Positions 1-9,659 of a stretch of DNA of 64,000 nucleotides are shown one piece after another (within the stretch, counting starts at the first letter, position 1; each line of letters begins with the position of its first letter). The DNA is taken from the NCBI GenBank assembly GCA_025456205.1, contig JALOLA010000004.1, positions 21,980-85,979 on the forward strand, written 5' to 3'. The notes beneath the pieces were generated by a model. The model ran no database searches and was not told the origin of the DNA. It was given only the letters and a program-made list of their open reading frames with translations. The DNA is from Acidobacteriota bacterium (lineage in GTDB: Bacteria; Acidobacteriota; Aminicenantia; UBA2199). Made by a program: the position numbers and the translations under genes.

Positions 1-106
1 AAGTTTGGAGAAATAAAACATGGGCAGCGTTAAAGACTTAAAAATATTAAATACACCCCGATAGTGGTGCAGCGGGAATAAAAAGTATCAGCAAAAATGA
101 GGCTTC

Positions 107-1666
107 ATGACAACCCAAACGATGGATTTCAGCAGCATTTATCTCCGTTACGGCTATTCGAGAGAGGTGATTTCTGTCATTGAAAAGGAGAATTTACTGC
201 CACTCGGATTACTAAAAAGATTGCATTCAAATTATCCGCAGCAATCGGGTTTTTTCAGAACGGATGAAGCTTTTTTTTCAGAAAAAACATTTTTTTCCGG
301 TTTAAAAGGATTCAGGGAAATAATCGAGAAACTAAACGAACATAAAATTGACATCGGATTTATTCGAGAGCGCGAATTTTTCATCGAAGTTTATAGATTC
401 TTAGCAACGAAACACGTCTTGAATTCGATTGATTGGAACAGTTATGAAAAAGATCCGATGTATCATTTGATTTTCCCTCAACCGGGCATGATCCATGCTG
501 ATGAAGTTAAAAAGTATATTGACGCGAAAAATGACGATGAAAGAAAAAAAGTTGTTGAGGAATATAAGAAAAAAACAAATCCACATGATGGAAAGCAAAA
601 ATTGAACAAGCCGTGGTTTGTAAACAAAGAAGGTCGGTTGGAAATATTGCAGGGTTGTCAGCATAAATATCCTCCCGTAAAATTGATTTTCGACAAAACC
701 ACCCAAAATTGTTTCGCGTTTTGTACCTACTGTTTCCGTCATGCGCAAGTGAGAGGCGATGAGGACATGTTCGTACAGCATGATGTTGGTCAGGTTCATG
801 ATTATCTGAAGAAGCACAAAGAAATCAGTGATATTCTAATCACTGGCGGAGATGCTGGTTTCATTACTCGTGAACGGCTTGCAGAATATGTCAATCCGTT
901 AATGGAAGACCCCGAATTGGTTCATATAAAAACCGTTCGTTTTGGCTCAAGAGCAATTACTTTTCATCCTGAGTTGCTTTTAAGCGATCAATTTAAGGAA
1001 ATACTGGAATTATGGAAGAAAGTCATTGACAGCGGCATACAAGTTGTCTGGATGGCGCATTTTTCGACTTCTCGTGATATCTTAAATCCAGGCTCAGTCG
1101 CTGCTATTCGCAGATTAAAACAGTATGGAATTTCTGTTAAGAGTCAAAGCCCAATAATGAACCATGTCAGTTTATTCAAAGATGAAAACGGCAAGGTTGA
1201 CATAGATAAGTCCGCACAAAATTGGATCGATTTGGGAAACATATTGGCCATGGTGGGTGTGGGTTTCCATTCCATGTATTGTGCAAGACCTACTGGAGAA
1301 CATCATTATTTCACTGCTCCTTTGGCGGATATATCAAGAATATTCAATAAAATTTATAGGGAATTGGCATCGATTAATCGTCCTTCTAGGTATATCACCA
1401 TGACTTCTTCTTCAGGAAAAATATCACTGTTGGGTACCGGCGAAATCAATGGAGAAAAAATATTTGCGCTGAAATTTAACGAAGGCAGGGACATGGATTG
1501 GATGGATAGGGTTTATTTTGCTAAATTCGACGAAAAGGAAAACACAATAGAAAAGTTGGAGCCTTATGGGACAGGTAAATATTTTTATGAAGATGAATTA
1601 ATTGAAATCGAAAATAAACTCGCCGAAGCATTGGAAAAAAAAATTAAAGAATCTGAACAATTATGA
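107..1666 (+). CDS. KamA-family radical SAM amino-acid 2,3-aminomutase-like protein (519 aa, about 100 aa longer at the N-terminus than typical KamA)
   Basis: Cys triad CFAFCTYC (CxxxCxxC) at aa 202-209, preceded by GCQHKYPPVKLIFDKTTQN. This matches the lysine 2,3-aminomutase block G-x-HRYP-(hydrophobic run)-D-x-C-x3-C-x2-C. AT-rich codon usage. First gene of a packed + strand operon. Confidence 0.8.
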   Translation: MTTQTMDFSSIYLRYGYSREVISVIEKENLLPLGLLKRLHSNYPQQSGFFRTDEAFFSEKTFFSGLKGFREIIEKLNEHKIDIGFIREREFFIEVYRFLATKHVLNSIDWNSYEKDPMYHLIFPQPGMIHADEVKKYIDAKNDDERKKVVEEYKKKTNPHDGKQKLNKPWFVNKEGRLEILQGCQHKYPPVKLIFDKTTQNCFAFCTYCFRHAQVRGDEDMFVQHDVGQVHDYLKKHKEISDILITGGDAGFITRERLAEYVNPLMEDPELVHIKTVRFGSRAITFHPELLLSDQFKEILELWKKVIDSGIQVVWMAHFSTSRDILNPGSVAAIRRLKQYGISVKSQSPIMNHVSLFKDENGKVDIDKSAQNWIDLGNILAMVGVGFHSMYCARPTGEHHYFTAPLADISRIFNKIYRELASINRPSRYITMTSSSGKISLLGTGEINGEKIFALKFNEGRDMDWMDRVYFAKFDEKENTIEKLEPYGTGKYFYEDELIEIENKLAEALEKKIKESEQL

Positions 1667-2379
1667 TAAACAAATTAGTTAAATCAGCCAGGGAAGCGGT
1701 TGTGGACATTTTTGATGGAGCAACCGTTATGATAAGTGGTTTCGGTGAGGCGGGTAGTCCTATTGAATTGATTCATGCTTTAATAGACCAGGGGGCAAAT
1801 AAACTGACTATTGTCAGTAATAACACCGGCAGTGGTAATGTTGGCCTTGCCGCACTTATTGAAAACAAGCAAGTCAAAAAGATGATATGTTCATTTCCCA
1901 GAACTGCCAATTCCACAGTCTTTCCCGATCTGTATCGTAAAGGAGAGATAGAACTGGAGCTGGTTCCGCAAGGAACGCTCGCTGAGAGAATCAGAGCTGC
2001 CGGCGCAGGGATTCCGGCATATTATACCCAAACATCGGTAAATACGCCACTTGCCCAGAACAAAGAATTGCGAATATTCAATAAAAAGGCATACGTTTTG
2101 GAATACGCCATCAAAGCGGATTTTTCGTTGGTTAAGTGCCATGCCGCTGATAGATACGGTAACCTGATCTACAATAAAACCGCCAGAAATTTCGGTCCGA
2201 TCATGTGTACTGCAGCAAAAACAACTATCGTGCAAGCAAGGAAAATTCTCGAGCTCGGACAAATAGACCCCGAGTGCGTTGTAACCCCCGGAATTTTTGT
2301 TAAAAGAGTTGTGGAAGTTGCTGATCCCGCAGACGAATCGAAACTCGTCGCGGAAAATAGAAGGTACCCATGGAATTGA
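1663..2379 (+). CDS. 3-oxoacid CoA-transferase subunit A (ScoA/AtoD/PcaI type)
   Basis: N-terminus MINKLV...ISGFGEAGSPIELIHALIDQGANKLTIVSNNTGSG is the canonical CoA-transferase family I alpha subunit. Overlaps the upstream stop by 4 nt. Confidence 0.85.
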   Translation: MINKLVKSAREAVVDIFDGATVMISGFGEAGSPIELIHALIDQGANKLTIVSNNTGSGNVGLAALIENKQVKKMICSFPRTANSTVFPDLYRKGEIELELVPQGTLAERIRAAGAGIPAYYTQTSVNTPLAQNKELRIFNKKAYVLEYAIKADFSLVKCHAADRYGNLIYNKTARNFGPIMCTAAKTTIVQARKILELGQIDPECVVTPGIFVKRVVEVADPADESKLVAENRRYPWN

Positions 2380-3041
2380 ATGAAGAAAATATAGGTTGGA
2401 GTGTGAATCAGATGGCCCAAAAAGTGGCCATGGATATCCATGATGGAGCTTATGTGAATCTCGGTATTGGCATGCCGGAGTTGGTTGCCGATTTTATTCC
2501 CGAAGGTCGCGAAGTTATTTATCACACCGAAAATGGTCTGCTTGGCATGGGCAAAGCGCCGCAACCCGGATGCGAGGACCCTGAATTGATAAACGCGGGG
2601 AAAAAATGCGTGACGGCAATACCCGGTGCTTGCTATTTTCATCATGCCGATAGCTTTACAATGATTCGTGGCGGACATATCGATGTTTGTGTGCTGGGTG
2701 CATTGCAGATTTCTGAAGAGGGAGATCTTGCCAACTGGTCAACGGGAGAACCGGGAGCCGTTCCCGCCGTTGGCGGCGCGATGGATCTGGTTGCGGGTGT
2801 TCAAACAATATTTGTGATTACCCAACATTGTATGAAAAACGGCCAAGCAAAAATCGTCAAACAGTGTACTTATCCCCTTACGGGAAAAAATGTTGTGAAC
2901 CGAATTTATTCCAACCTTGCGATTATTGATGTGATTGAAAAAAAACTGTTTGTTAGAGAGCTTGCGCGTGGAGTCACTTTTGGATATTTGCAAAAGAATA
3001 CGGATGCCAAGTTATTCAAAAATTCAGGAGAACAACTTTAA
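2370..3041 (+). CDS. 3-oxoacid CoA-transferase subunit B (ScoB/AtoA/PcaJ type)
   Basis: AYVNLGIGMPELVADFIP ... YHTENGLLGMG is the beta-subunit signature, with the catalytic Glu in the ENG motif. Overlaps subunit A by 10 nt. Confidence 0.85.
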   Translation: MELNEENIGWSVNQMAQKVAMDIHDGAYVNLGIGMPELVADFIPEGREVIYHTENGLLGMGKAPQPGCEDPELINAGKKCVTAIPGACYFHHADSFTMIRGGHIDVCVLGALQISEEGDLANWSTGEPGAVPAVGGAMDLVAGVQTIFVITQHCMKNGQAKIVKQCTYPLTGKNVVNRIYSNLAIIDVIEKKLFVRELARGVTFGYLQKNTDAKLFKNSGEQL

Positions 3042-3050
3042 CTGAACATC

Positions 3051-4382
3051 ATGGTGGAAAAAAATAGCGAAGAGATTTACAGGCAGGCATGTGAAGTATT
3101 AACCGGCGGGGTTAGTCGCAATACCGTTTATCGCAAACCTTTCCCGCATTATGCGGCAAAAGCTTCCGGATGCTATATTTCCGATGTCGAGGGGACGGAG
3201 CGTATCGATTTTGCCAATAATATGGCGGCTCTAATTCATGGGCATGCGCACCCAGCAATAATCGAAGCTGTTTCCCGGCAGCTGCAAAGGGGAACCGCCT
3301 ATACTCTGGCTTCCGAGATTGAAGTGGCATTCGCGCAACTTTTAAATAAAAGGGCTAAGAGTTTTGAAAGAATCAGATTTGTGAACTCCGGAACGGAAGC
3401 CGTCATGGCCATGATAAAAGCATCAAGGGCGTTTACCGGGCGAGCCAAAATCGCAAAAGCAGAGGGCGCTTATCACGGGACTTATGATTATGCCGAAGTC
3501 AGCCAAACTGCAAATCCTACTAACTGGGGGGATATAAACAAACCAAATAGTGTTCCTCTTGTTTATGCAACACCTAAAGGAGTTTTGGATGATGTACTGA
3601 TTTTCCCCTATAATGATATTGAAAGGACAATTGCCATTTTGGACACGCAAGCAGACCAAATCGCTTGTGTATTGATTGACCCTGTTCCGCATCGGGTTGG
3701 GCTTTTGCAGGGCACATGTGAGTTTATTGAGGCAATTTACAATTGGACCCGGAAAAATGGCGCATTACTTGTGTTTGATGAGGTCGTTACTTTGAGAGTT
3801 AAATACGGGGGTGCACAGGAAAAATATTCTGTAAGCCCCGATATAACCGCATTAGGAAAAATTATCGGCGGAGGATTCCCTGTTGGTGCTATCGCGGGGA
3901 GGGCAGATATTATGAAAGTTTTAGACCCTCGTGAAAGTAATCTGCGATTTCCCCATTCCGGAACTTTTTCCGCTAATCCGATCACAATGACCGCCGGTTA
4001 TGTAGCAATGGAACTATTTGACAAAGATGCTGTTCTGAGATTAAATGCGCTAACGGATAAAGCTATCCGACAGATTGAAGAAGTAATCAGGCTCGTCGAT
4101 GTTCCGGTTTCTCTTACAGGAGCAGGCTCCATGTTTCGTTTTCATTTAACTCCAACTCCGCCTTCGACTTATCGTGAAGCTTATCAAACAAAAGAAGCCA
4201 ATGCTATTATTAACGAACTCCTTGACTTTTTGTATTTTAATGAAAAAATGCTAATGATTAACACTTTTGCTTGTATGTTTTCAACGGTAATGACCCAAAA
4301 AGAAATAGATAAACTCTCTGACGGATTGCTGCGAGCTTTTAGGGCATTGAAGCCGAAAATTGAAAAATTACAAAACACATAA
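3051..4382 (+). CDS. Class-III (PLP) aminotransferase of the glutamate-1-semialdehyde aminomutase-like subgroup; candidate beta-amino-acid transaminase
   Basis: YTLASEIEVAFAQLL, FVNSGTEAVMAMIKASRAFTGR and LVFDEVVT...LGKIIGGGFPVGA (PLP-Lys region) are typical of the HemL-like fold type I AT-III subgroup. The subgroup assignment is by similarity pattern only. Confidence 0.75.
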   Translation: MVEKNSEEIYRQACEVLTGGVSRNTVYRKPFPHYAAKASGCYISDVEGTERIDFANNMAALIHGHAHPAIIEAVSRQLQRGTAYTLASEIEVAFAQLLNKRAKSFERIRFVNSGTEAVMAMIKASRAFTGRAKIAKAEGAYHGTYDYAEVSQTANPTNWGDINKPNSVPLVYATPKGVLDDVLIFPYNDIERTIAILDTQADQIACVLIDPVPHRVGLLQGTCEFIEAIYNWTRKNGALLVFDEVVTLRVKYGGAQEKYSVSPDITALGKIIGGGFPVGAIAGRADIMKVLDPRESNLRFPHSGTFSANPITMTAGYVAMELFDKDAVLRLNALTDKAIRQIEEVIRLVDVPVSLTGAGSMFRFHLTPTPPSTYREAYQTKEANAIINELLDFLYFNEKMLMINTFACMFSTVMTQKEIDKLSDGLLRAFRALKPKIEKLQNT

Positions 4383-4383
4383 T

Positions 4384-5589
4384 ATGATGCGGGAAGCTTT
4401 TATTTGCGATGCGATTCGAACCCCGATTGGGAAATACGGCGGTGCATTGTCATCAGTAAGAGCGGATGATTTGGCGGCAATCTCTATTAAAGCACTAATG
4501 AGAAGGAATGCCGGCATTGATTGGAAGGAAATTGATGACGTGATCTTGGGCTGTGCCAACCAGGCAGGTGAAGACAACCGAAATGTAGCCCGCATGGCTT
4601 TGCTGTTGGCCGGCCTGCCCGTAACGGTTCCGGGTGTAACTGCAAACCGCTTGTGTGGTTCGGGAATGGATGCTGTTGGTGCTGCGGCAAGAGCCATCAG
4701 ATCAGAAGAAGCAGAAATGCTGATAGCGGGCGGTGTCGAAAGCATGTCAAGGGCTCCTTTTGTACTGGCAAAAGCAACGGAAGCCTTCTCAAGATCGGCT
4801 GAAATATTCGATTCAACGATTGGCTGGAGGTTCATCAATAAAGAATTCAAGAAAATATTCGGCACTGATTCGATGATAGAAACGGCCGAGAACATCGCCA
4901 GGGAGTTGAAAATCAGTCGCGAAGACCAGGACAGATTCGCATTTCATAGCCAGATGAAAGCTGCAAATGCCCAACAAAATGGATTATTTGCAGATGAAAT
5001 CTTTCCGGTTCTTATTTCACAAAGCAAAGGCGAACAAATAAAAGTGGATCAAGACGAACATCCGCGTTTGACGTCATTGGAAAAGCTTGCATCGTTGAAG
5101 TCGCTTACAGGTGATGGCGGAACAATAACAGCAGGAAACTCTTCCGGTGTCAACGATGGCTCCGCTGCCTTAATTATCGCTTCGGAAAAAGCAATTAAAG
5201 CAAATAATTTAGTGCCCAAAGCCAAAATATTGGGAATGCAAACATCCGGCGTTCCGCCTCGCATCATGGGGATGGGGCCCGTTCCGGCTACAAAACAATT
5301 GCTGAAACGATTGGGATTATCGCTTGACGATATTGGCATCATTGAGCTTAACGAAGCTTTTGCGGCCCAGTCGCTTGGCTGTATTCGCGAGCTTGAACTG
5401 GATGACAATGATGAAAGAATAAACCAGCTTGGCGGAGCTATTGCGCTTGGCCATCCGTTAGGTATGTCAGGTGCTAGAATCGTAGCTACGGCTTGTTGTC
5501 AATTGCAGCGTTCCGATTCCAAATATGCGCTTTGCACTATGTGCATCGGCGTGGGTCAGGGCATAGCAATTGTTTTGGCAAAGGGTTAA
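4384..5589 (+). CDS. Acetyl-CoA C-acyltransferase / beta-ketoadipyl-CoA thiolase-like (PcaF/PaaJ-like)
   Basis: MMREAFICDAIRTPIGKYGGALSSVRADDLAAISIKAL closely matches the PcaF/PaaJ N-terminus. Active-site region NRLCGSGMDAV and C-terminal CIGVGQG are present. ATG at 4384 lies 1 nt after the aminotransferase stop, so I preferred it to the track start at 4360. Confidence 0.85.
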   Translation: MMREAFICDAIRTPIGKYGGALSSVRADDLAAISIKALMRRNAGIDWKEIDDVILGCANQAGEDNRNVARMALLLAGLPVTVPGVTANRLCGSGMDAVGAAARAIRSEEAEMLIAGGVESMSRAPFVLAKATEAFSRSAEIFDSTIGWRFINKEFKKIFGTDSMIETAENIARELKISREDQDRFAFHSQMKAANAQQNGLFADEIFPVLISQSKGEQIKVDQDEHPRLTSLEKLASLKSLTGDGGTITAGNSSGVNDGSAALIIASEKAIKANNLVPKAKILGMQTSGVPPRIMGMGPVPATKQLLKRLGLSLDDIGIIELNEAFAAQSLGCIRELELDDNDERINQLGGAIALGHPLGMSGARIVATACCQLQRSDSKYALCTMCIGVGQGIAIVLAKG

Positions 5590-5810
5590 ATGAAAATCCC
5601 GGTTTGACAGCCGAGATGCCTCCGGCAAATACGCGTGGATTCTTCGAAAACCGGCTGGAATTCTTCGCGTGAACCGATGGCAAGAAGGGAAACAAGCTCT
5701 TTTTTGGTTATGTTTCCGTCTCTGACATCCTTCAAAATATCTTCAATGGGTTTGACCACGCATTCTCCGACAATTCTATTTTTGTCATGACTAATTTTGA
5801 AAAAAACCAT
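5586..5810 (-). CDS. Hypothetical small protein (74 aa; alternative upstream ATG would give 96 aa ending at 5876)
   Basis: This is the 3' tail of the artefactual 995-aa antisense ORF and the only part lying outside fdhA. Intermediate base composition, no recognisable motif. Sits exactly at the AT-rich/GC-rich junction. Confidence 0.3.
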   Translation of the reverse strand: MVFFKISHDKNRIVGECVVKPIEDILKDVRDGNITKKELVSLLAIGSREEFQPVFEESTRICRRHLGCQTGIFI

Positions 5811-5957
5811 TGAAATGGCAATAGGGTCTTTCGAATCATTTATTGCAATTCCCCCGGATATTTCGTACAATACCATACTGGGTATGGGGAATGTAGCGAT
5901 CGCCCATTTGGTCAGCTGGCCATTCGCAATACTTGAGAAGCAAAAAAGGAGGCATCC

Positions 5958-8681
5958 ATGCCGGAAACAGTTACCATTTGCATCGATGGAAAGGAAATCA
6001 AGGCAAACAAAGGCGACAACCTGCTCAAGGTGGCCAGGGACAACGGTTTTGATATTCCCGGCTTGTGCTTTTACGAAAAAATAACCCCCACCGGCGACTG
6101 CCGGCTGTGCATGGTGAAGATAGAAGGGCGGCCCGGCATGGTCCCCTCCTGCCTGGTCAAGGTGGAGGCGGGGATGAAGGTCACCGCCTTCGATGCCCAG
6201 CTCGAGGAAACGCGCCGGATGCTGGCCGACGTGCTGCTCTCCGAGCACAACGACGACTGCATCACCTGCGAGCGCGACGGCGACTGCCAGATCCAGGACC
6301 TGGCCTTCCGCTATGGCCTGGACACCCCCAAGCGCGCGTTCGCCGCGATCTGGAATGAGATCCCCCAGGCCCCCGATTCGTCGGCGCCGGTCCTGTTCTA
6401 CGACTCCTCCAAGTGCATCAAGTGCGAGCGCTGCGTCAAGGCCTGCTTCGAAATCCAGGGCAAAGGGGTGCTGAGCATGGCCCAGCGCGGCATCCACAGC
6501 CACGTCGTGGCCGGTACCGGCCTTTGGTCGGGATCGGAATGCGACGGCTGCGGCGAGTGCGTCCAGGCCTGCCCGGTGGGCGCCCTGATGGAGAAGCCGG
6601 TATACGGCGCCAAGCTGAAGAAAAAGGACGTGGAGCGCAAGGTGGTCACCACCTGCCCGTACTGCGGCGTCGGCTGCCAGCTCGAGCTCTGGATCAAGAA
6701 TGACAGGATCGCCAAGGTGAAGGGCGCCGACATGGTCCCCAACTGGGGGGCGGCCTGCGTCAAGGGACGCTTCGGCCTCGATTTCGTCCAGCGCCCCGAC
6801 CGCTTGACCCGGCCCCTCATCCGCAAGGAGGGCAAGCTGGTGGAAAGCTCCTGGGACGAGGCCCTTGACCTGGTGGCCGCCAAGCTCGGCGCCATCAAGA
6901 AGGAGCACGGCCCCGCCGCCCTGGCCGGCCTCGCTTCGGCCAAGTGCACCAACGAGGAGAACTTCGTCTTCCAGAAGTTGGTGCGCACCGCCTTCGGCTC
7001 CAATAACGTCGACCACTGCGCCCGCCTGTGCCACGCTTCCACCGTCGCCGGCCTGGCCCGCTCCTTCGGCTCGGGCGCCATGACCAACTCCATCGCCGAG
7101 CTGGAGCAGGCCGAGGTCATCCTGATCACCGGCTCCAACACCACCGAGACCCACCCGGTCATCGCCACGCGCATCAAGCGCGCCGTCCTCTTCCACGGCG
7201 CCAAGCTCATCGTCATCGACCCGCGGCGCATCGACCTGGTCAAGTATACCGAGAACTACGGCGGCCTGTGGCTGCGCCAGAAGAACGGCAGCGACGTGGC
7301 CTGGATCAACAGCATGATGAACGTCATCATCGAGGAAAAACTCCTCGACGAGGAGTTCGTCAAGACGCGCACCGAGGATTTCGCGGCCTTCAGCAAGGTC
7401 GTCTCCGCCTATGCCCCAGAAAAAATGGAGAAGATCACCCACATCCCCGCCGAGCAGCTGCGCCAGGCCGCCCGCCTGTATGCCAAGGCCAATCGTGCCT
7501 CCATCGTTTATTCGATGGGCATCACCCAGCACACCACCGGCACCGACAACGTAATGTCGCTGGCCAACCTGGCCATGGTCACCGGCAGCCTGGGCAAGGA
7601 GTCGGCGGGCGTCAACCCCCTGCGCGGCCAGAACAACGTCCAGGGCTCCTGCGACATGGGCGCCCTGCCCAACGTCTTCCCCGGCTACCAGGCCGTGACC
7701 GAACCCGCCCTCAGGGAAAAATTCGAGAAGGCCTGGAGCGTCAAGCTTGACGACAAGGTCGGCCTGACCATCGTCGAGATCATGCACCAGGCCGCCGCGG
7801 GCAAGATCAAGGGCCTGTACATCATGGGCGAGAACCCCATGGTCTCCGACCCCGACCTCGGCCATGTCAGGCAGGCCCTGGAGAAACTGGATTTCCTGGT
7901 GGTGCAGGACATCTTCCTGACCGAGACCGCCGAGCTGGCCGATGTGGTGCTGCCCGTGGCCTCCTTCGCCGAGAAGCAGGGGACCTTCACCAACACCGAG
8001 CGCCGCGTGCTCTGGGTGGAGAAGGCCGTGCCGGCACCCGGTGAAGCGCGCATCGACTGGGAGATCCTCTGCGACGTGGGACAGCGCATGGGATTTCCCC
8101 TGGGCTTCCAGAGCCTGCAGGATATTGTGCGCGAGGTCAACCAGCTGGTGCCGCAGTACGCCGGCATCACCTTCGAGCGCCTCATGCGCGGCGAGAAGCT
8201 GCAGTGGCCCTGCCCCAACCCCGAGCACCCGGGGACGAAGTTCCTGCACCGCGACAAGTTCACCCGCGGCCTGGGCAAGTTCTTCGCCATCGACTACATC
8301 CCGCCTGCGGAATGGCCCGACGCCAAGTATCCCTTCCTGCTGTCCACCGGCCGCCTGCTCTATCACTATCATACGGGCAGCATGAGCCGGCGCACCGAGG
8401 CATTGCCGCAGTATGTTCCCGGCCCCTACATGGAGACGCATGCCGCCGACATGAAGCGGCTGGGCATCGCTGACCGCGAGCAGGTCAAGGTATCGTCGCG
8501 GCGCGGCTCGATCGTCATCGAGGCGCGCGAAAGCGACCGCGTCGACGAGGGCTCGGTGTTCATCACCTTCCACTTCGCCGAGGCGGCGGCCAATGTGCTC
8601 ACCAACGACGCTTTCGATCCCATCGCCAAGATCCCCGAGTTCAAAGTGGCGGCCTGCCAGATAGAAAAAATATCAAAATAA
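5958..8681 (+). CDS. Formate dehydrogenase alpha subunit, molybdopterin-dependent, NAD-linked type with N-terminal 2Fe-2S and 4Fe-4S domains (Cys-type, not selenocysteine)
   Basis: N-terminal ICIDGKEIKANKGDNLL...CRLCMV (2Fe-2S ferredoxin-like). CIKCERCVKAC and CDGCGECVQACPVGA (4Fe-4S). TTCPYCGVGC (molybdopterin-domain Fe-S). NVDHCARLCHASTVAGL with Cys at the position of Sec in FdhF. RBS aaggagg at 5938-5944. No in-frame TGA. Confidence 0.9.
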   Translation: MPETVTICIDGKEIKANKGDNLLKVARDNGFDIPGLCFYEKITPTGDCRLCMVKIEGRPGMVPSCLVKVEAGMKVTAFDAQLEETRRMLADVLLSEHNDDCITCERDGDCQIQDLAFRYGLDTPKRAFAAIWNEIPQAPDSSAPVLFYDSSKCIKCERCVKACFEIQGKGVLSMAQRGIHSHVVAGTGLWSGSECDGCGECVQACPVGALMEKPVYGAKLKKKDVERKVVTTCPYCGVGCQLELWIKNDRIAKVKGADMVPNWGAACVKGRFGLDFVQRPDRLTRPLIRKEGKLVESSWDEALDLVAAKLGAIKKEHGPAALAGLASAKCTNEENFVFQKLVRTAFGSNNVDHCARLCHASTVAGLARSFGSGAMTNSIAELEQAEVILITGSNTTETHPVIATRIKRAVLFHGAKLIVIDPRRIDLVKYTENYGGLWLRQKNGSDVAWINSMMNVIIEEKLLDEEFVKTRTEDFAAFSKVVSAYAPEKMEKITHIPAEQLRQAARLYAKANRASIVYSMGITQHTTGTDNVMSLANLAMVTGSLGKESAGVNPLRGQNNVQGSCDMGALPNVFPGYQAVTEPALREKFEKAWSVKLDDKVGLTIVEIMHQAAAGKIKGLYIMGENPMVSDPDLGHVRQALEKLDFLVVQDIFLTETAELADVVLPVASFAEKQGTFTNTERRVLWVEKAVPAPGEARIDWEILCDVGQRMGFPLGFQSLQDIVREVNQLVPQYAGITFERLMRGEKLQWPCPNPEHPGTKFLHRDKFTRGLGKFFAIDYIPPAEWPDAKYPFLLSTGRLLYHYHTGSMSRRTEALPQYVPGPYMETHAADMKRLGIADREQVKVSSRRGSIVIEARESDRVDEGSVFITFHFAEAAANVLTNDAFDPIAKIPEFKVAACQIEKISK

Positions 8682-8694
8682 AGGAGGATGAACA

Positions 8695-9552
8695 ATGGAG
8701 TACGACTGCAAGGCCCCGGCCATGGTGGCCACGGACCTGAATGAGAACATCTGCGTAAAGAAAACCACGAACAGCTGGTTCAAGCTGCTGGTGCTGGGCA
8801 TCCTCGCCGGCGCCTACATCGGCTTCGGCGGCGAGCTTGCAAACATCGTCGGGCATGATGCGGCGACCTTCGTCGGCGCGGGCCTGGCCGCCTTCATCAA
8901 GGGCGCCGTCTTCTCGGTCGGCCTGATGCTGGTCGTCATCGCCGGGGCCGAGCTGTTCACCGGCAATACCATGATCACCATGTCGGTACTGGACGGCAAG
9001 GCCAAATTCAGCGGCCTGCTGTACAACTGGTCGGTCGTTTACGCGGCCAACTTCATCGGTTCGATGCTGATGGTTTATATCATGTTCGGCAGCGGCCTGC
9101 TGGAAGGCGGCAACGTGGCCGTGGGCGCCTCGGCCCTGAAGACCGCCGCCGCCAAGGCCAGCCTCGACTTCGGGCCCGCCTTCTTCCGCGGCATCCTCTG
9201 CAACTGGCTGGTCTGCCTGGCGGTATGGATGGCTTTGACCTCGCGCAACACCATCGGCAAAATATGGGCCATTTTCTTCCCGATCATGGCCTTCATCGCT
9301 TCCGGCTTCGAGCACAGCATCGCCAACATGTACCTCATCCCGATCGGCATCATGCTCAAGGGAGTGAACGAAGTGGTGGCCGCCGCGACTGCGGCAGGCC
9401 TTTCTCCTGAAAAACTGGCCAACGTCAGCTGGTACGGTTTCGCTGTCAAGAACTTGATCCCGGTCACGCTGGGCAATATCGTCGGCGGCGGCTTCTTCGT
9501 CGCCACTCTCTACTGGTTCGCCTACGTCCGCAAGCCCAAAAAAGCCGCCTAG
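8695..9552 (+). CDS. focA: Formate/nitrite transporter family channel (FocA-like)
   Basis: FNT-family features are present, including LFTGN and the conserved C-terminal half. Lies immediately downstream of the FDH alpha gene. Confidence 0.8.
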   Translation: MEYDCKAPAMVATDLNENICVKKTTNSWFKLLVLGILAGAYIGFGGELANIVGHDAATFVGAGLAAFIKGAVFSVGLMLVVIAGAELFTGNTMITMSVLDGKAKFSGLLYNWSVVYAANFIGSMLMVYIMFGSGLLEGGNVAVGASALKTAAAKASLDFGPAFFRGILCNWLVCLAVWMALTSRNTIGKIWAIFFPIMAFIASGFEHSIANMYLIPIGIMLKGVNEVVAAATAAGLSPEKLANVSWYGFAVKNLIPVTLGNIVGGGFFVATLYWFAYVRKPKKAA

Positions 9553-9570
9553 TTCTTATTCGCTTCATCC

Positions 9571-9606
9571 GGGGCCGTGTCCGTCAGGACCGGCCATTTT
9601 TTTTAA
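9571..9606. terminator. Bidirectional intrinsic terminator between convergent focA-like gene and the LuxR-propeller gene
   Basis: GC-rich hairpin ggccgtgtccgtcaggaccggcc followed by a T8 run (cattttttttaag). Confidence 0.6.
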
Positions 9607-9659
9607 GAGAAGAATTTTCTGTGACGCGTGACAGGCAATTACTGCCCTGTCACTGACAC

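What the first reader, a model, noticed from the sequence alone, without database searches (positions are those of the whole stretch)
107..5589. AT-rich five-gene operon: aminomutase, beta-transaminase, CoA-transferase, thiolase; a candidate undescribed beta-amino-acid catabolic route
Seen in sequence: five + strand genes packed with 1-10 nt overlaps. They are a KamA-family radical-SAM aminomutase-like enzyme, CoA-transferase A and B subunits, a HemL-like class-III aminotransferase and a thiolase whose N-terminus is PcaF/PaaJ-like. Established knowledge: KamA-family enzymes move the alpha-amino group to C3 (lysine, glutamate, arginine 2,3-aminomutases). Characterised beta-amino-acid transaminases belong to the GSA-aminomutase-like AT-III subgroup. 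PcaIJ/ScoAB-type transferases activate 3-oxo acids, and PcaF-type thiolases cleave 3-oxoadipyl-CoA to acetyl-CoA plus succinyl-CoA. Inference: the operon could convert an alpha-amino (di)carboxylate such as 2-aminoadipate or glutamate into the 3-amino isomer, then the 3-oxo acid, then the 3-oxoacyl-CoA, then acetyl-CoA plus an acyl-CoA. This is distinct from the known lysine fermentation route (KamA-KamDE-Kdd-Kce-Kal), none of whose other genes are present. I do not recognise this gene combination as a described pathway.
Basis: partly seen in the sequence, partly recalled or inferred. Interest (0 to 1): 0.72.

Follow-up and report, generated by a model that had tools for sequence, protein, structure and literature searches.

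The report
Candidate new 2-aminoadipate (lysine) breakdown operon
A five-gene operon, acquired by horizontal transfer here and conserved in hundreds of mostly anaerobic bacterial species, most likely breaks down the lysine product 2-aminoadipate by moving its amino group one carbon along and cleaving the product to acetyl-CoA and succinyl-CoA; I found no description of this route.

Summary
Five intact + strand genes (107-5589) encode a deep-branching KamA-like radical-SAM/PLP enzyme, a PcaIJ/ScoAB-type CoA-transferase (A and B subunits), a class-III aminotransferase that is not HemL, and a thiolase that passes the PcaF (3-oxoadipyl-CoA thiolase) equivalog cut-off.

They lie on a ~7 kb AT-rich island (38-45% GC) inside 62-68% GC DNA. 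The same junctions occur in four independent assemblies, so this is horizontal transfer and not a chimera.

The array is strongly conserved. 470 species-level genomes encode the aminomutase-like protein, and 63 of 64 sufficiently long loci carry all five genes in the same order.

In 23 Marinilabiliales loci the array is directly followed by L-piperideine-6-carboxylate dehydrogenase, which makes 2-aminoadipate, and a saccharopine dehydrogenase. Two of these loci also carry a lysine-ketoglutarate reductase.

The enzyme keeps the Fe-S cysteines, the SAM motif, the carboxylate-binding Arg and the PLP Lys. The two Asp that bind lysine's epsilon-amine in lysine 2,3-aminomutase are Arg and Thr here.

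Best reading: 2-aminoadipate -> 3-aminoadipate -> 3-oxoadipate -> 3-oxoadipyl-CoA -> acetyl-CoA + succinyl-CoA. Full-text searches found no description. No biochemistry exists, and the step order is unresolved.

The parts
1..16 (+). Last five codons and stop of a purE-like (AIR carboxylase) gene. Most of the gene lies upstream of the window and belongs to the same AT-rich island. It is probably donor cargo and not part of the pathway.
   Evidence: L001 9416-9910 is Pfam AIRC, 143.7 bits. Window position = L001 position minus 9894. The same purE-AM adjacency is seen in L011, L053, L057, L061 and L086.
107..1666 (+). KamA-superfamily radical-SAM/PLP enzyme and candidate 2-aminoadipate 2,3-aminomutase (519 aa). 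Key residues: C202/C206/C209 (Fe-S), R211, G247-G248-D249 (SAM), R394, T431, K438 (PLP).
   Evidence: NCBIfam matches only KamA-family models, all below cut-off. A family profile matches lysine 2,3-aminomutase 2A5H at E 1e-38. In the AF2 model (pLDDT 79, pTM 0.82) 2A5H is the only hit below E = 0.001 (E 3.7e-13, 418 columns). The listed residues are invariant in the family.
1663..2379 (+). 3-oxoacid CoA-transferase subunit A (PcaI/ScoA type). It overlaps the previous gene by 4 nt.
   Evidence: TIGR02429 346.5 bits (cut-off 128.5). Best PDB hit is succinyl-CoA:3-ketoacid CoA-transferase subunit A, 3CDK.
2370..3041 (+). 3-oxoacid CoA-transferase subunit B (PcaJ/ScoB type). It overlaps subunit A by 10 nt and carries the TE54NG motif.
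   Evidence: TIGR02428 294.9 bits (cut-off 243.55). The motif was read in the translation. Assigning the catalytic Glu to that motif is my own knowledge of SCOT enzymes.
3051..4382 (+). Class-III aminotransferase of the GSA-aminomutase-like subgroup. Candidate 3-aminoadipate (or 3-aminoadipyl-CoA) : 2-oxo-acid beta-transaminase.
   Evidence: Pfam Aminotran_3 185.7 bits. The hemL equivalog scores 334 against a cut-off of 527. Best PDB hit is 6K8H, the Sphaerobacter thermophilus beta/gamma-amino-acid omega-transaminase, at 378.7 bits over the full length, and its proposed carboxylate-binding R36 aligns with R23 here (PMC10589169).
4384..5589 (+). 3-oxoadipyl-CoA thiolase (PcaF/PaaJ type), 401 aa. 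The alternative TTG start at 4360 is less likely.
   Evidence: TIGR02430 pcaF equivalog 649 bits (cut-off 597) and NF006551 672 bits (cut-off 605). Best named PDB hit is beta-ketoadipyl-CoA thiolase 6PCA at 528 bits. The LCGSG, GHPLG and CIGVGQG catalytic motifs were read in the translation.
5586..5876 (-). 96-aa ORF on the island, probably a remnant of a donor hydE-like gene. Not part of the pathway.
   Evidence: No Pfam hit. tblastn gives 50% identity to the N-terminus of the resident HydE-like radical-SAM gene at L001 7830. A gene was called here in L001 and L002.
5958..6134 (+). Right-hand island boundary inside the formate-dehydrogenase alpha gene (5958-8681). The first ~45 codons are AT-rich. 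Positions 6094-6134 are one copy of a 41-nt imperfect direct repeat; the other copy lies at the left boundary, outside the window.
   Evidence: GC rises from 0.40 to 0.62-0.66 across 5850-6300. Repeat D3 lies at L001 9152-9192 and 15988-16028, 85% identical. See also the sequence and the Pfam domains of the gene.

Best explanation
The five genes form a self-contained catabolic module for L-2-aminoadipate, the product of lysine breakdown through saccharopine.

Step 1 (inferred). The KamA-like enzyme uses a [4Fe-4S] cluster, S-adenosylmethionine and pyridoxal phosphate to move the amino group from C2 to C3, by the radical mechanism known for lysine 2,3-aminomutase. The product is 3-aminoadipate.

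Step 2 (inferred). The GSA-aminomutase-like class-III aminotransferase passes the beta-amino group to 2-oxoglutarate or pyruvate, giving 3-oxoadipate.

Step 3 (family membership shown, substrate inferred). The PcaIJ/ScoAB-type transferase takes CoA from succinyl-CoA to make 3-oxoadipyl-CoA.

Step 4 (family membership shown at equivalog level). The PcaF-type thiolase cleaves 3-oxoadipyl-CoA to acetyl-CoA and succinyl-CoA, which regenerates the CoA donor.

Net reaction: 2-aminoadipate + 2-oxoglutarate + CoA -> glutamate + succinate + acetyl-CoA. This needs no O2 and loses no CO2.

In this window the module sits on a ~7 kb low-GC island that a high-GC bacterium (the MAG is labelled Acidobacteria) acquired from a Bacteroidota- or Ignavibacteria-like donor.
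For: 1. Strict conservation. 470 loci in species-representative genomes encode the AM protein. 63 of 64 loci long enough carry AM-CtA-CtB-AT-Thl in the same order and strand, at median 70-78% protein identity. They span Bacteroidota, Ignavibacteria, Chlorobiota, Balneolales, Rhodothermaceae, Acidobacteria and 'Edwardsbacteria'.

2. The lower half of the route is the canonical beta-ketoadipate lower pathway. The thiolase passes the pcaF equivalog (649 against 597), and its best named PDB hit is beta-ketoadipyl-CoA thiolase 6PCA. Both CoA-transferase subunits pass the pcaI/J-scoA/B family cut-offs.

3. Genes that make 2-aminoadipate are contiguous with the module in 23 Marinilabiliales loci, for example Draconibacterium orientale DSM 25947 (L048). 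The gene right after the thiolase passes the L-piperideine-6-carboxylate dehydrogenase equivalog (802.8 against 730). It is followed by a saccharopine dehydrogenase, and most of these loci have a second, divergently transcribed copy upstream of AM; the best PDB hits are 1E5L, 2AXQ and the human AASS SDH domain. In L031 and L038 a lysine-ketoglutarate reductase is inserted as well, with the human AASS LKR domain 8DDA as best PDB hit at E 7.5e-42. In a 24th locus, L074, the AM gene is followed directly by the P6C dehydrogenase and the other four genes are absent.

4. AM keeps what 2,3-aminomutase chemistry needs: C202xxxC206xxC209, R211 (LAM R134), GGD247-249 and K438 (LAM K337, same 12-residue spacing from a conserved Pro). 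At the positions of LAM Asp293 and Asp330, which bind the lysine epsilon-ammonium, it has invariant Arg394 and Thr431. That fits a distal carboxylate.

5. The closest solved relative of the AT is a transaminase for free beta/gamma-amino acids, and the proposed carboxylate-binding Arg is conserved (PMC10589169).

6. AT homologs at 75% identity or more that I looked up all sit in this same operon.
Against: No enzyme of this family has been assayed, and I found no report of 3-aminoadipate as a defined metabolic intermediate.

The AM scores far below every curated KamA-family cut-off.

Arg394 is not specific to this family. About 26 of 41 more distant clade members, which are not in such operons, also have Arg there.

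The AF2 model has low confidence exactly in the active-site loops (157-222, 395-400). Residue equivalences therefore rest on sequence alignment only.

The link to saccharopine genes is seen in only one bacterial order, so the 23 loci are not phylogenetically independent. The window itself has no such genes.

The gene order (transferase before transaminase) and the Kat precedent (PMC3149608) fit a CoA-first order equally well.
Confidence: 0.5

Rival explanations
1. The substrate and end products are the same, but CoA activation comes first. 3-Aminoadipate is converted to 3-aminoadipyl-CoA by the CoA-transferase, with succinyl-CoA as donor. The HemL-like aminotransferase then acts on the CoA ester, as Kat does on 3-aminobutyryl-CoA, to give 3-oxoadipyl-CoA directly. 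This avoids the free beta-keto acid.
For: Kat is a HemL-like class-III aminotransferase from digester Bacteroidetes and Cloacimonas. It accepts only CoA or NAC thioesters and is encoded next to a thiolase (PMC3149608). The gene order AM-CtA-CtB-AT-Thl matches this step order. Free beta-keto acids are prone to decarboxylation (PMC10589169).
Against: The transferase subunits fall in the 3-oxoacid (PcaIJ/ScoAB) family. The AT's closest solved relative works on free beta-amino acids and keeps the proposed carboxylate-binding Arg. I could not obtain the Kat sequence, so similarity to Kat is untested. All AT homologs at 75% identity or more that I checked lie in this operon and not in lysine-fermentation clusters.
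Confidence: 0.22
2. The substrate is glutamate. A glutamate 2,3-aminomutase makes beta-glutamate, which is transaminated to 3-oxoglutarate. That is then activated and cleaved to acetyl-CoA plus malonyl-CoA, or it decarboxylates to acetoacetate, which ScoAB and the thiolase convert to two acetyl-CoA.
For: A basic or neutral residue pair in place of the two LAM aspartates is also the hallmark of glutamate 2,3-aminomutase (my own knowledge: Ruzicka and Frey 2007). ScoAB-type transferases act on acetoacetate, and the best PDB hit of subunit A is ScoA.
Against: The Glu_2_3_NH3_mut equivalog scores 52.7 bits against a cut-off of 650. The thiolase passes the 3-oxoadipyl-CoA thiolase equivalog and not an acetoacetyl-CoA thiolase model. 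The contiguous genes in 23 loci make 2-aminoadipate, not glutamate.
Confidence: 0.08
3. The aminomutase acts on some other alpha-amino acid, such as lysine, aspartate, leucine, methionine or 2-aminopimelate. The downstream enzymes then process the corresponding beta-amino, beta-keto and beta-ketoacyl-CoA compounds. One example would be beta-lysine -> 3-oxo-6-aminohexanoyl-CoA -> acetyl-CoA + 4-aminobutyryl-CoA.
For: The AM belongs to an uncharacterised deep clade, so its specificity cannot be read from homology. Beta-transaminases and Kat are promiscuous (PMC3149608, PMC10589169). The saccharopine-gene linkage is confined to one order.
Against: The lysine-binding Asp293 and Asp330 are replaced by Arg and Thr. 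The thiolase is an equivalog-level PcaF, about 528 bits to beta-ketoadipyl-CoA thiolase. No KamDE, Kdd or Kce-type genes appear among the conserved neighbours.
Confidence: 0.1
4. The first gene product is not an aminomutase. It is a KamA-fold radical-SAM enzyme doing other chemistry, such as an epimerisation, a C-C rearrangement or a protein or cofactor modification. The operon would then serve a different 3-oxoadipate-related function.
For: It scores below all curated KamA cut-offs. It has an N-terminal extension of about 75 aa and a different C-terminal region from LAM. The active-site loops are poorly modelled.
Against: The PLP-lysine, the alpha-carboxylate Arg, the Fe-S cysteines and the SAM motif are all invariant. 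The strictly co-inherited aminotransferase needs an amine substrate. An aminomutase followed by a beta-transaminase explains how an alpha-amino acid can reach a 3-oxo acid.
Confidence: 0.05

Closest known systems
Lysine 2,3-aminomutase (KamA, Clostridium subterminale; PDB 2A5H) and the KamA family (AblA, EpmB, glutamate and arginine 2,3-aminomutases)
   Same: It is the only structural match below E = 0.001, and the alignment spans almost the whole LAM chain. The CxxxCxxC cluster motif, the GGD SAM motif, the Arg after the third Cys and the PLP-binding Lys are all conserved. The radical, PLP-assisted 1,2-amino shift is therefore probably the same.
   Different: About 18% identity. It falls below every curated family and equivalog cut-off. 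It is 519 aa long with an extra N-terminal segment. The two Asp that hold lysine's epsilon-amine are Arg394 and Thr431. Its gene context is a PcaIJF-type lower pathway, not KamDE/Kdd/Kce, AblB or EF-P.
Beta-ketoadipate lower pathway (PcaIJ 3-oxoadipate:succinyl-CoA transferase plus PcaF thiolase) of aerobic aromatic degradation
   Same: The transferase subunits and the thiolase pass the corresponding NCBIfam cut-offs, and the thiolase scores 528 bits to beta-ketoadipyl-CoA thiolase 6PCA. The predicted products, acetyl-CoA and succinyl-CoA, are the same.
   Different: Here 3-oxoadipate would come from an amino acid through an aminomutase and a transaminase, not from ring cleavage of catechol or protocatechuate. 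No pcaBCD or cat genes are among the conserved neighbours. Many hosts are taxa I know as anaerobes or facultative anaerobes (Lentimicrobiaceae, Ignavibacteria, Chlorobiota, Draconibacterium); oxygen physiology was not tested here.
Variant lysine fermentation with Kat, the HemL-like 3-aminobutyryl-CoA aminotransferase (Perret et al. 2011, PMC3149608)
   Same: It also combines a KamA-type aminomutase, a HemL-like beta-transaminase, a two-subunit CoA-transferase and a thiolase. It is likewise found in Bacteroidetes from anaerobic digesters.
   Different: That pathway needs KamDE, Kdd and Kce and ends in acetoacetyl-CoA. None of those genes accompany this operon. The aminomutase here is not a lysine 2,3-aminomutase, and the thiolase is PcaF-type. 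Sequence similarity of the AT to Kat could not be tested.
Saccharopine pathway of lysine catabolism (LKR, SDH, AASA/P6C dehydrogenase), continuing through 2-oxoadipate and glutaryl-CoA
   Same: The upper part (LKR, SDH and P6C dehydrogenase homologs) is physically fused to this operon in Marinilabiliales and would supply 2-aminoadipate.
   Different: The known continuation runs 2-aminoadipate -> 2-oxoadipate -> glutaryl-CoA -> crotonyl-CoA and loses two CO2 (my own knowledge). The route proposed here isomerises 2-aminoadipate and splits C6 into C4 + C2 without decarboxylation.
Beta-amino-acid omega-transaminases of the GSA-aminomutase-like subgroup (StoTA 6K8H, MesAT 2YKU, Variovorax 4AO9)
   Same: StoTA is the best PDB hit, aligned over the full length (378.7 bits), with the PLP-Lys region and the proposed carboxylate-binding Arg conserved. 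MesAT and Variovorax score about 190 bits.
   Different: Those enzymes were characterised on aromatic and aliphatic mono-carboxylic beta-amino acids. Here the predicted substrate is a dicarboxylic beta-amino acid, or its CoA ester.

Membership tests
KamA-family radical-SAM/PLP 2,3-aminomutases (superfamily level) | CxxxCxxC [4Fe-4S] motif and a GGD/GGE SAM-binding motif | tested here: met
   C202, C206, C209 and G247-G248-D249 are invariant in the 23- and 42-sequence family alignments. They are nearly invariant in the 52-sequence clade alignment.
KamA-family radical-SAM/PLP 2,3-aminomutases (superfamily level) | PLP-binding lysine (LAM K337) and alpha-carboxylate-binding arginine (LAM R134) | tested here: met
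   R211 follows the third Cys, as R134 does in LAM. K438 lies 12 residues after the conserved P426, matching LAM P325...K337, and is Lys in 50 of 52 clade members. The LAM residue roles are my own knowledge (Lepore et al. 2005). The equivalence rests on sequence alignment, not a structure.
KamA-family radical-SAM/PLP 2,3-aminomutases (superfamily level) | Curated family score (TIGR00238 cut-off 199.2 bits) | tested here: not met
   78.1 bits. Distant clade members score 38-126 bits. This is a deep, uncurated branch.
KamA-family radical-SAM/PLP 2,3-aminomutases (superfamily level) | LAM-like fold over the whole chain | tested here: met
   The AF2 model (pLDDT 79.4, pTM 0.82) has 2A5H as its only Foldseek hit below E = 0.001 (E 3.7e-13, 418 aligned columns, TM 0.60 normalised to LAM).
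Lysine 2,3-aminomutase proper (KamA/AblA) | Asp293 and Asp330, which bind the epsilon-ammonium; equivalog score | tested here: not met
   The aligned residues are Arg394 and Thr431. TIGR03820 scores 60.6 bits against a cut-off of 525.4.
Glutamate 2,3-aminomutase | Equivalog score TIGR04368 (cut-off 650) | tested here: not met
   52.7 bits.
EpmB (EF-P beta-lysylation) | Equivalog score TIGR03821 (cut-off 369.3) | tested here: not met
   47 bits, the weakest of the KamA-family matches. No epmA or efp genes are among the conserved neighbours.
PcaIJ/ScoAB 3-oxoacid CoA-transferase | Subfamily scores for both subunits; catalytic Glu in the ENG motif of subunit B | tested here: met
   TIGR02429 scores 346.5 bits (cut-off 128.5) and TIGR02428 scores 294.9 bits (cut-off 243.55). 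TE54NG is present in the translation. The AtoD equivalog is not reached (189.8 against 315). The actual CoA acceptor and donor cannot be tested here.
PcaF/PaaJ 3-oxoadipyl-CoA thiolase | Equivalog score; catalytic Cys-His-Cys | tested here: met
   TIGR02430 scores 649 bits (cut-off 597) and NF006551 scores 672 bits (cut-off 605). It scores 528 bits to beta-ketoadipyl-CoA thiolase 6PCA. The LCGSG, GHPLG and CIGVGQG motifs are present.
HemL (glutamate-1-semialdehyde 2,1-aminomutase) | Equivalog score TIGR00713 (cut-off 527.3) | tested here: not met
   334.4 bits. Solved GSAMs score about 220 bits, against 379 bits for the beta/gamma-amino-acid transaminase 6K8H.
Kat (3-aminobutyryl-CoA aminotransferase, EC 2.6.1.111) | Close sequence similarity to CLOAM0809 or DIG1_60031 | not tested
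   The Kat sequence was not obtainable with these tools. It is not in the paper's supplements, and no named hit appeared among the top 120 homologs.
Kat (3-aminobutyryl-CoA aminotransferase, EC 2.6.1.111) | Location in a lysine-fermentation cluster with kamDE, kdd and kce (PMC3149608) | tested here: not met
   No such genes are among the conserved neighbours in 80 loci. Three further AT homologs at 75% identity or more also lie in this five-gene operon.
Saccharopine pathway upper module (in related loci, not in the window) | P6C/AASA dehydrogenase, saccharopine dehydrogenase (Glu-forming) and lysine-ketoglutarate reductase | tested here: met
   NF050084 scores 802.8 bits against 730. The two Sacchrp_dh paralogs score 228 and 302 bits to saccharopine reductase 1E5L. 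The AlaDh_PNT protein in L031 matches the human AASS LKR domain at E 7.5e-42. These genes are absent from the window.

The most novel reading that the evidence does not exclude
The first gene encodes a 2-aminoadipate 2,3-aminomutase, a fourth substrate class for radical-SAM/PLP aminomutases. Together with a beta-transaminase it channels lysine-derived 2-aminoadipate into the PcaIJF lower pathway. That would define an oxygen-independent, decarboxylation-free lysine catabolic route (lysine -> saccharopine -> 2-aminoadipate -> 3-aminoadipate -> 3-oxoadipyl-CoA -> succinyl-CoA + acetyl-CoA). The route would be present in at least several hundred species across Bacteroidota, Ignavibacteriota, Chlorobiota and other phyla, and would move between phyla as a compact five-gene cassette.
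Probability: 0.65. Interest if true: 0.8.

Novelty: new variant of a known kind. Interest (0 to 1): 0.74.

Why it matters
If this is right, it adds a new enzyme activity (2-aminoadipate 2,3-aminomutase) and a new intermediate (3-aminoadipate) to amino-acid metabolism.

It would explain how many bacteria from anoxic or low-oxygen habitats dispose of 2-aminoadipate by a route that does not go through 2-oxoadipate and glutaryl-CoA. I did not check whether they lack that route.

It would give the beta-ketoadipate lower pathway a role outside aromatic degradation.

The route keeps all six carbons, as C4 + C2. That is attractive in reverse for bio-based production of adipate or aminoadipate precursors and of beta-amino dicarboxylic acids.

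It also corrects a widespread annotation problem. The genes are currently labelled 'hypothetical protein', 'lysine 2,3-aminomutase' or 'glutamate-1-semialdehyde aminomutase'.

Cultured hosts exist (Draconibacterium orientale DSM 25947, D. sediminis, D. mangrovi, Maribellus spp.), so the hypothesis can be tested directly.

Tried and rejected
**Assembly chimera at the GC jump.** Rejected. Both junctions are identical in four independent assemblies from different samples, and L001 shows GC-rich DNA on both sides.

**EpmB, true KamA, glutamate or arginine aminomutase, and true HemL.** All rejected on curated score cut-offs.

**Comparison with Kat.** Attempted, but the sequence could not be obtained. 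The paper's supplements hold no sequences, and the top 120 homologs carry no such name. As a substitute I looked up three AT homologs at about 75% identity; all lie in the same operon.

**Contexts of distant AM relatives** (P0244 at 39%, P0250 at 35%). No similar operon, so the association is specific to the close family.

**Other flanking genes** in loci outside Marinilabiliales (sulfatase, fucosidase, MacB/FtsX, Mur ligase, PorP, AIM24 and others). No consistent link to the operon. An XRE-HTH/cupin regulator directly upstream in 15 loci is the only other recurrent neighbour.

**Promoter and terminator scan.** Counts were at shuffle level and uninformative.

**Using Arg394 as a family-specific substrate determinant.** Weakened, because Arg is common at this position across the wider uncharacterised clade.

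**AF2 model.** It confirms the fold, but confidence is low in the active-site loops and no coordinates are accessible, so it could not be used to check residue geometry.

**Literature.** Eight full-text searches for the pathway, the intermediate or the enzyme found nothing relevant. One hit for 'beta-aminoadipic' was a misprinted reference title. Subscription-only papers are not covered.

Full report
**1. What is in the window**

Positions 107-5589 hold five intact + strand ORFs:
- AM, 107-1666, 519 aa.
- CtA, 1663-2379, 238 aa.
- CtB, 2370-3041, 223 aa.
- AT, 3051-4382, 443 aa.
- Thl, 4384-5589, 401 aa. A TTG at 4360 would extend it, but the PcaF model aligns from residue 10 of that longer ORF and gene callers on identical contigs chose the ATG.

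Two junctions overlap (4 and 10 nt) and two are gaps (9 and 1 nt).

Family scans confirm all five assignments:
- AM matches only KamA-family radical-SAM models, all far below cut-off (TIGR00238 78 bits against 199; AblA 61 against 525; Glu-2,3-AM 53 against 650; EpmB 47 against 369).
- CtA and CtB pass the PcaI/ScoA and PcaJ/ScoB subfamily cut-offs (346 against 128; 295 against 244).
- AT is Aminotran_3. It is HemL-like but well below the HemL cut-off (334 against 527).
- Thl passes the 3-oxoadipyl-CoA thiolase equivalog (649 against 597).

**2. The operon sits on a horizontally acquired island**

GC content is 38-45% up to about position 6000 and 62-68% for the remaining 58 kb. The exact AM protein is found on four contigs from four samples (two JGI, two Logan). 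These are 99.98-100% identical to the window over the island. L001 extends upstream and shows GC-rich DNA on the other side too, carrying [FeFe]-hydrogenase genes and HydF, HydG and HydE. An assembly chimera is therefore excluded.

The source record is a MAG labelled Acidobacteria. The nearest relatives of all five proteins (76-89% identity) are from low-GC Bacteroidales/Rikenellaceae and Ignavibacteria, and the best nucleotide identity is 76%.

The island also carries:
- a purE-like gene, whose stop codon is at window 14-16;
- a 96-aa remnant resembling the N-terminus of HydE (5586-5876, minus strand);
- the AT-rich first ~45 codons of the formate-dehydrogenase alpha gene.

A 41-nt imperfect direct repeat encoding DCRLCMVKIEGRP marks both island ends (L001 9152-9192 and 15988-16028, the latter equal to window 6094-6134). 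The fdhA gene is therefore a donor/resident mosaic.

**3. The five-gene array is conserved and widespread**

A scan of one genome per species (GTDB) with an alignment of AM relatives found 470 loci that encode a relative. The best 80 were fetched. tblastn of the five window proteins shows the complete co-linear array in 63 of the 64 loci that are long enough. Median identities are 70% (AM), 78% (CtA), 76% (CtB), 72% (AT) and 70% (Thl).

Hosts include these cultured strains:
- Draconibacterium orientale DSM 25947, D. sediminis and D. mangrovi
- Maribellus sediminis and M. mangrovi

They also include MAGs of these groups:
- Lentimicrobiaceae, Rikenellaceae and Prolixibacteraceae
- Ignavibacteria/Melioribacteraceae and Chlorobiota
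- Balneolales/Cyclonatronaceae and Rhodothermaceae
- a second Acidobacteria MAG and 'Edwardsbacteria'

AT homologs at about 75% identity, looked up independently, are in the same operon. More distant AM relatives (35-39%) are not. The five genes are therefore a functional unit that is specific to this AM family.

**4. What the aminomutase-like protein retains**

A profile built from 52 clade members matches lysine 2,3-aminomutase (LAM, 2A5H) at E 1e-38 over LAM residues 80-324. In an AlphaFold model (pLDDT 79, pTM 0.82), 2A5H is the only hit below E = 0.001, aligned over 418 columns.

The following are invariant in the family:
- C202xxxC206xxC209, followed by F-R211. LAM has C125/C129/C132 and R134, the alpha-carboxylate binder.
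- G247-G248-D249, the SAM motif.
- K438. It lies 12 residues after a conserved proline, exactly as LAM K337 (the PLP lysine) lies after P325.

Two independent HMM alignments place LAM's 'PYYIYQCD293LS' against 'FHSMYCAR394PT'. The ungapped C-terminal register places LAM D330 against T431.

In LAM these two aspartates hold the epsilon-ammonium of lysine. In glutamate 2,3-aminomutase they are Lys and Asn (my own knowledge: Lepore et al. 2005; Ruzicka and Frey 2007). An Arg/Thr pair therefore argues against lysine and for a substrate with a distal carboxylate.

Two caveats apply. Arg at this position is common throughout the wider uncharacterised clade (about 26 of 41 distant members), so it is not a private signature. 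The model's active-site loops are also of low confidence.

**5. The decisive context: enzymes that make 2-aminoadipate**

I clustered all flanking ORFs of the 80 loci. In 23 loci, all Marinilabiliales, the thiolase gene is followed by a 513-aa aldehyde dehydrogenase and then a ~450-aa Sacchrp_dh protein. In most of them a second Sacchrp_dh paralog is transcribed divergently just upstream of AM.

- The dehydrogenase passes the NCBIfam equivalog for L-piperideine-6-carboxylate (2-aminoadipate-semialdehyde) dehydrogenase (803 bits against 730). This enzyme makes 2-aminoadipate.
- Both Sacchrp_dh paralogs (35% identical to each other) are full-length homologs of saccharopine reductase 1E5L, yeast Lys9 and the SDH domain of human AASS.
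- In the two Sunxiuqinia loci (L031, L038) an AlaDh_PNT protein lies between them. Its best solved relative is the lysine-ketoglutarate reductase domain of human AASS (E 7.5e-42). These two loci therefore carry the whole saccharopine pathway from lysine to 2-aminoadipate plus the five-gene core, all in one direction.
- In a 24th locus, the Tangfeifania locus L074, the AM gene is followed directly by the P6C dehydrogenase and the other four genes are absent.

Elsewhere the only recurrent neighbour is an XRE-HTH/cupin regulator just upstream of AM (15 loci). The remaining neighbours are unrelated housekeeping genes.

**6. The lower half of the route**

The thiolase's best named solved relative is beta-ketoadipyl-CoA thiolase (6PCA, 528 bits). 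CtA is closest to succinyl-CoA:3-ketoacid CoA-transferase (3CDK). These are the PcaIJF reactions: 3-oxoadipate + succinyl-CoA -> 3-oxoadipyl-CoA + succinate, then thiolysis to succinyl-CoA + acetyl-CoA.

The AT's best solved relative is the Sphaerobacter thermophilus omega-transaminase 6K8H (379 bits over the full length). That enzyme works on free beta- and gamma-amino acids. The Arg proposed to bind their carboxylate (R36) aligns with R23 here (PMC10589169).

**7. Most likely mechanism**

L-2-aminoadipate -> (AM, radical-SAM/PLP 2,3-amino shift) 3-aminoadipate -> (AT, with 2-oxoglutarate or pyruvate as acceptor) 3-oxoadipate -> (CtAB, succinyl-CoA as donor) 3-oxoadipyl-CoA -> (Thl) acetyl-CoA + succinyl-CoA.

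What is shown is the family membership of the last three enzymes, retention of the aminomutase catalytic residues, the strict co-inheritance, and the physical link to 2-aminoadipate-forming enzymes. What is inferred is the AM substrate and product, the AT substrate, and the step order.

The main alternative keeps the substrate but activates first: 3-aminoadipate -> 3-aminoadipyl-CoA -> 3-oxoadipyl-CoA. The precedent is Kat, a HemL-like transaminase from digester Bacteroidetes and Cloacimonas. Kat accepts only CoA or NAC thioesters and is encoded next to a thiolase and AtoAD (PMC3149608). I could not obtain the Kat sequence for comparison.

These readings are less likely for the reasons given under the rival explanations:
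- glutamate as substrate
- other amino acids as substrate
- a non-aminomutase function for the first gene

**8. Comparison with known systems and novelty**

Each enzyme belongs to a known superfamily, but the combination does not match any pathway I know or could find. The classical and Kat-variant lysine fermentations need KamDE, Kdd and Kce, which are absent here. The known continuation of the saccharopine pathway goes through 2-oxoadipate and glutaryl-CoA. The beta-ketoadipate pathway is fed by aromatic ring cleavage.

Eight full-text searches (7.7 million PMC papers plus bioRxiv) for 3-aminoadipate, aminoadipate aminomutase or this gene combination found nothing relevant. Subscription-only literature is not covered. 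Public annotations of these proteins read 'hypothetical protein', 'lysine 2,3-aminomutase', 'glutamate-1-semialdehyde aminomutase' or 'aspartate aminotransferase family protein'.

I rate it a new variant of known kinds: a new substrate class in the KamA family and a new catabolic route assembled from known modules.

**9. Verdict**

- Confidence in the free-acid version of the pathway: about 0.5.
- Confidence in the CoA-first version: about 0.22.
- Together, about 0.7 that the module converts 2-aminoadipate to acetyl-CoA plus succinyl-CoA via a 3-amino intermediate.

Interest is high for a metabolic finding, 0.74. The operon is widespread and unannotated, it implies a new radical-SAM activity and a new branch of lysine catabolism, and it can be tested directly in cultured Draconibacterium and Maribellus strains.

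Noticed in passing
window 1-6134 (island); L001 9152-9192 and 15988-16028: The ~7 kb AT-rich island is bounded by a 41-nt imperfect direct repeat (85% identical). The repeat is the DCRLCMVKIEGRP-coding piece of the formate-dehydrogenase alpha gene. The first ~45 codons of fdhA (5958-6093) have donor-like low GC and the rest has resident high GC, so fdhA looks like a recombinant mosaic. No integrase was seen among the called genes in or next to the island; tRNA genes were not scanned for.
   Followed up: partly
window 5586-5876 (- strand): A 96-aa ORF with no Pfam hit. By tblastn it is 50% identical to the N-terminus of the resident HydE-like radical-SAM gene upstream of the island (L001 7830-8870). 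It is probably a truncated hydE carried over from the donor.
   Followed up: partly
window 1-16; L001 9416-9910; also L011, L053, L057, L061, L086: A purE-like gene lies immediately upstream of the aminomutase gene on the island. In Lentimicrobiaceae-type loci the same purE, often with purC and a TsaC/Sua5-like gene, precedes the operon, and an XRE-HTH/cupin regulator comes before those. This suggests the donor was of that kind. Whether purE has any functional link to the operon is unknown.
   Followed up: partly
L005, L008, L011, L022, L030, L037, L040-L042, L053, L057, L061, L069, L083 and others (upstream of AM): A ~183-aa XRE-family HTH plus cupin-domain protein lies directly upstream of the operon in 15 of the 80 loci. 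It is a candidate small-molecule-responsive regulator of the operon. It is absent from the window.
   Followed up: no
L074 10-3269 (Tangfeifania MAG): This is the one exception to the five-gene synteny. The aminomutase gene is followed directly by the L-piperideine-6-carboxylate dehydrogenase gene, and no transferase, transaminase or thiolase genes are present on this 6.1 kb contig.
   Followed up: no
L048 8139-9458 (-) and 17432-18790 (+), and equivalents in most of the other 22 Marinilabiliales loci: Two saccharopine-reductase-type paralogs (35% identical to each other) flank the operon, yet an AlaDH-type lysine-ketoglutarate reductase is present only in the two Sunxiuqinia loci. One paralog may do the LKR step or act as a lysine 6-dehydrogenase. 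This is unexplained.
   Followed up: partly
window 5958-12488: Just downstream of the island lie a formate dehydrogenase alpha subunit with an N-terminal 2Fe-2S/NuoG-like domain (5958-8681), an FNT-family formate/nitrite transporter (8695-9552) and a large Reg_prop/Y_Y_Y/LuxR-type regulator (9660-12488, - strand). Upstream in L001 are [FeFe]-hydrogenase genes and the HydF/G/E maturases. The island therefore landed in a formate/hydrogen metabolism locus.
   Followed up: partly
window 5586-8573 (- strand) and many other long ORFs in 6000-64000: Long antisense 'shadow' ORFs, such as a 995-aa ORF opposite fdhA, are artefacts of the high GC content and not genes.
   Followed up: no
search result: 3-Aminoadipic acid is listed as a detected feature in a rumen-related goat metabolomics paper (PMC12664060) and in a CE-MS methods preprint. 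This is of interest because Bacteroidota are abundant in the rumen, but I did not open the papers to judge the identification.
   Followed up: no
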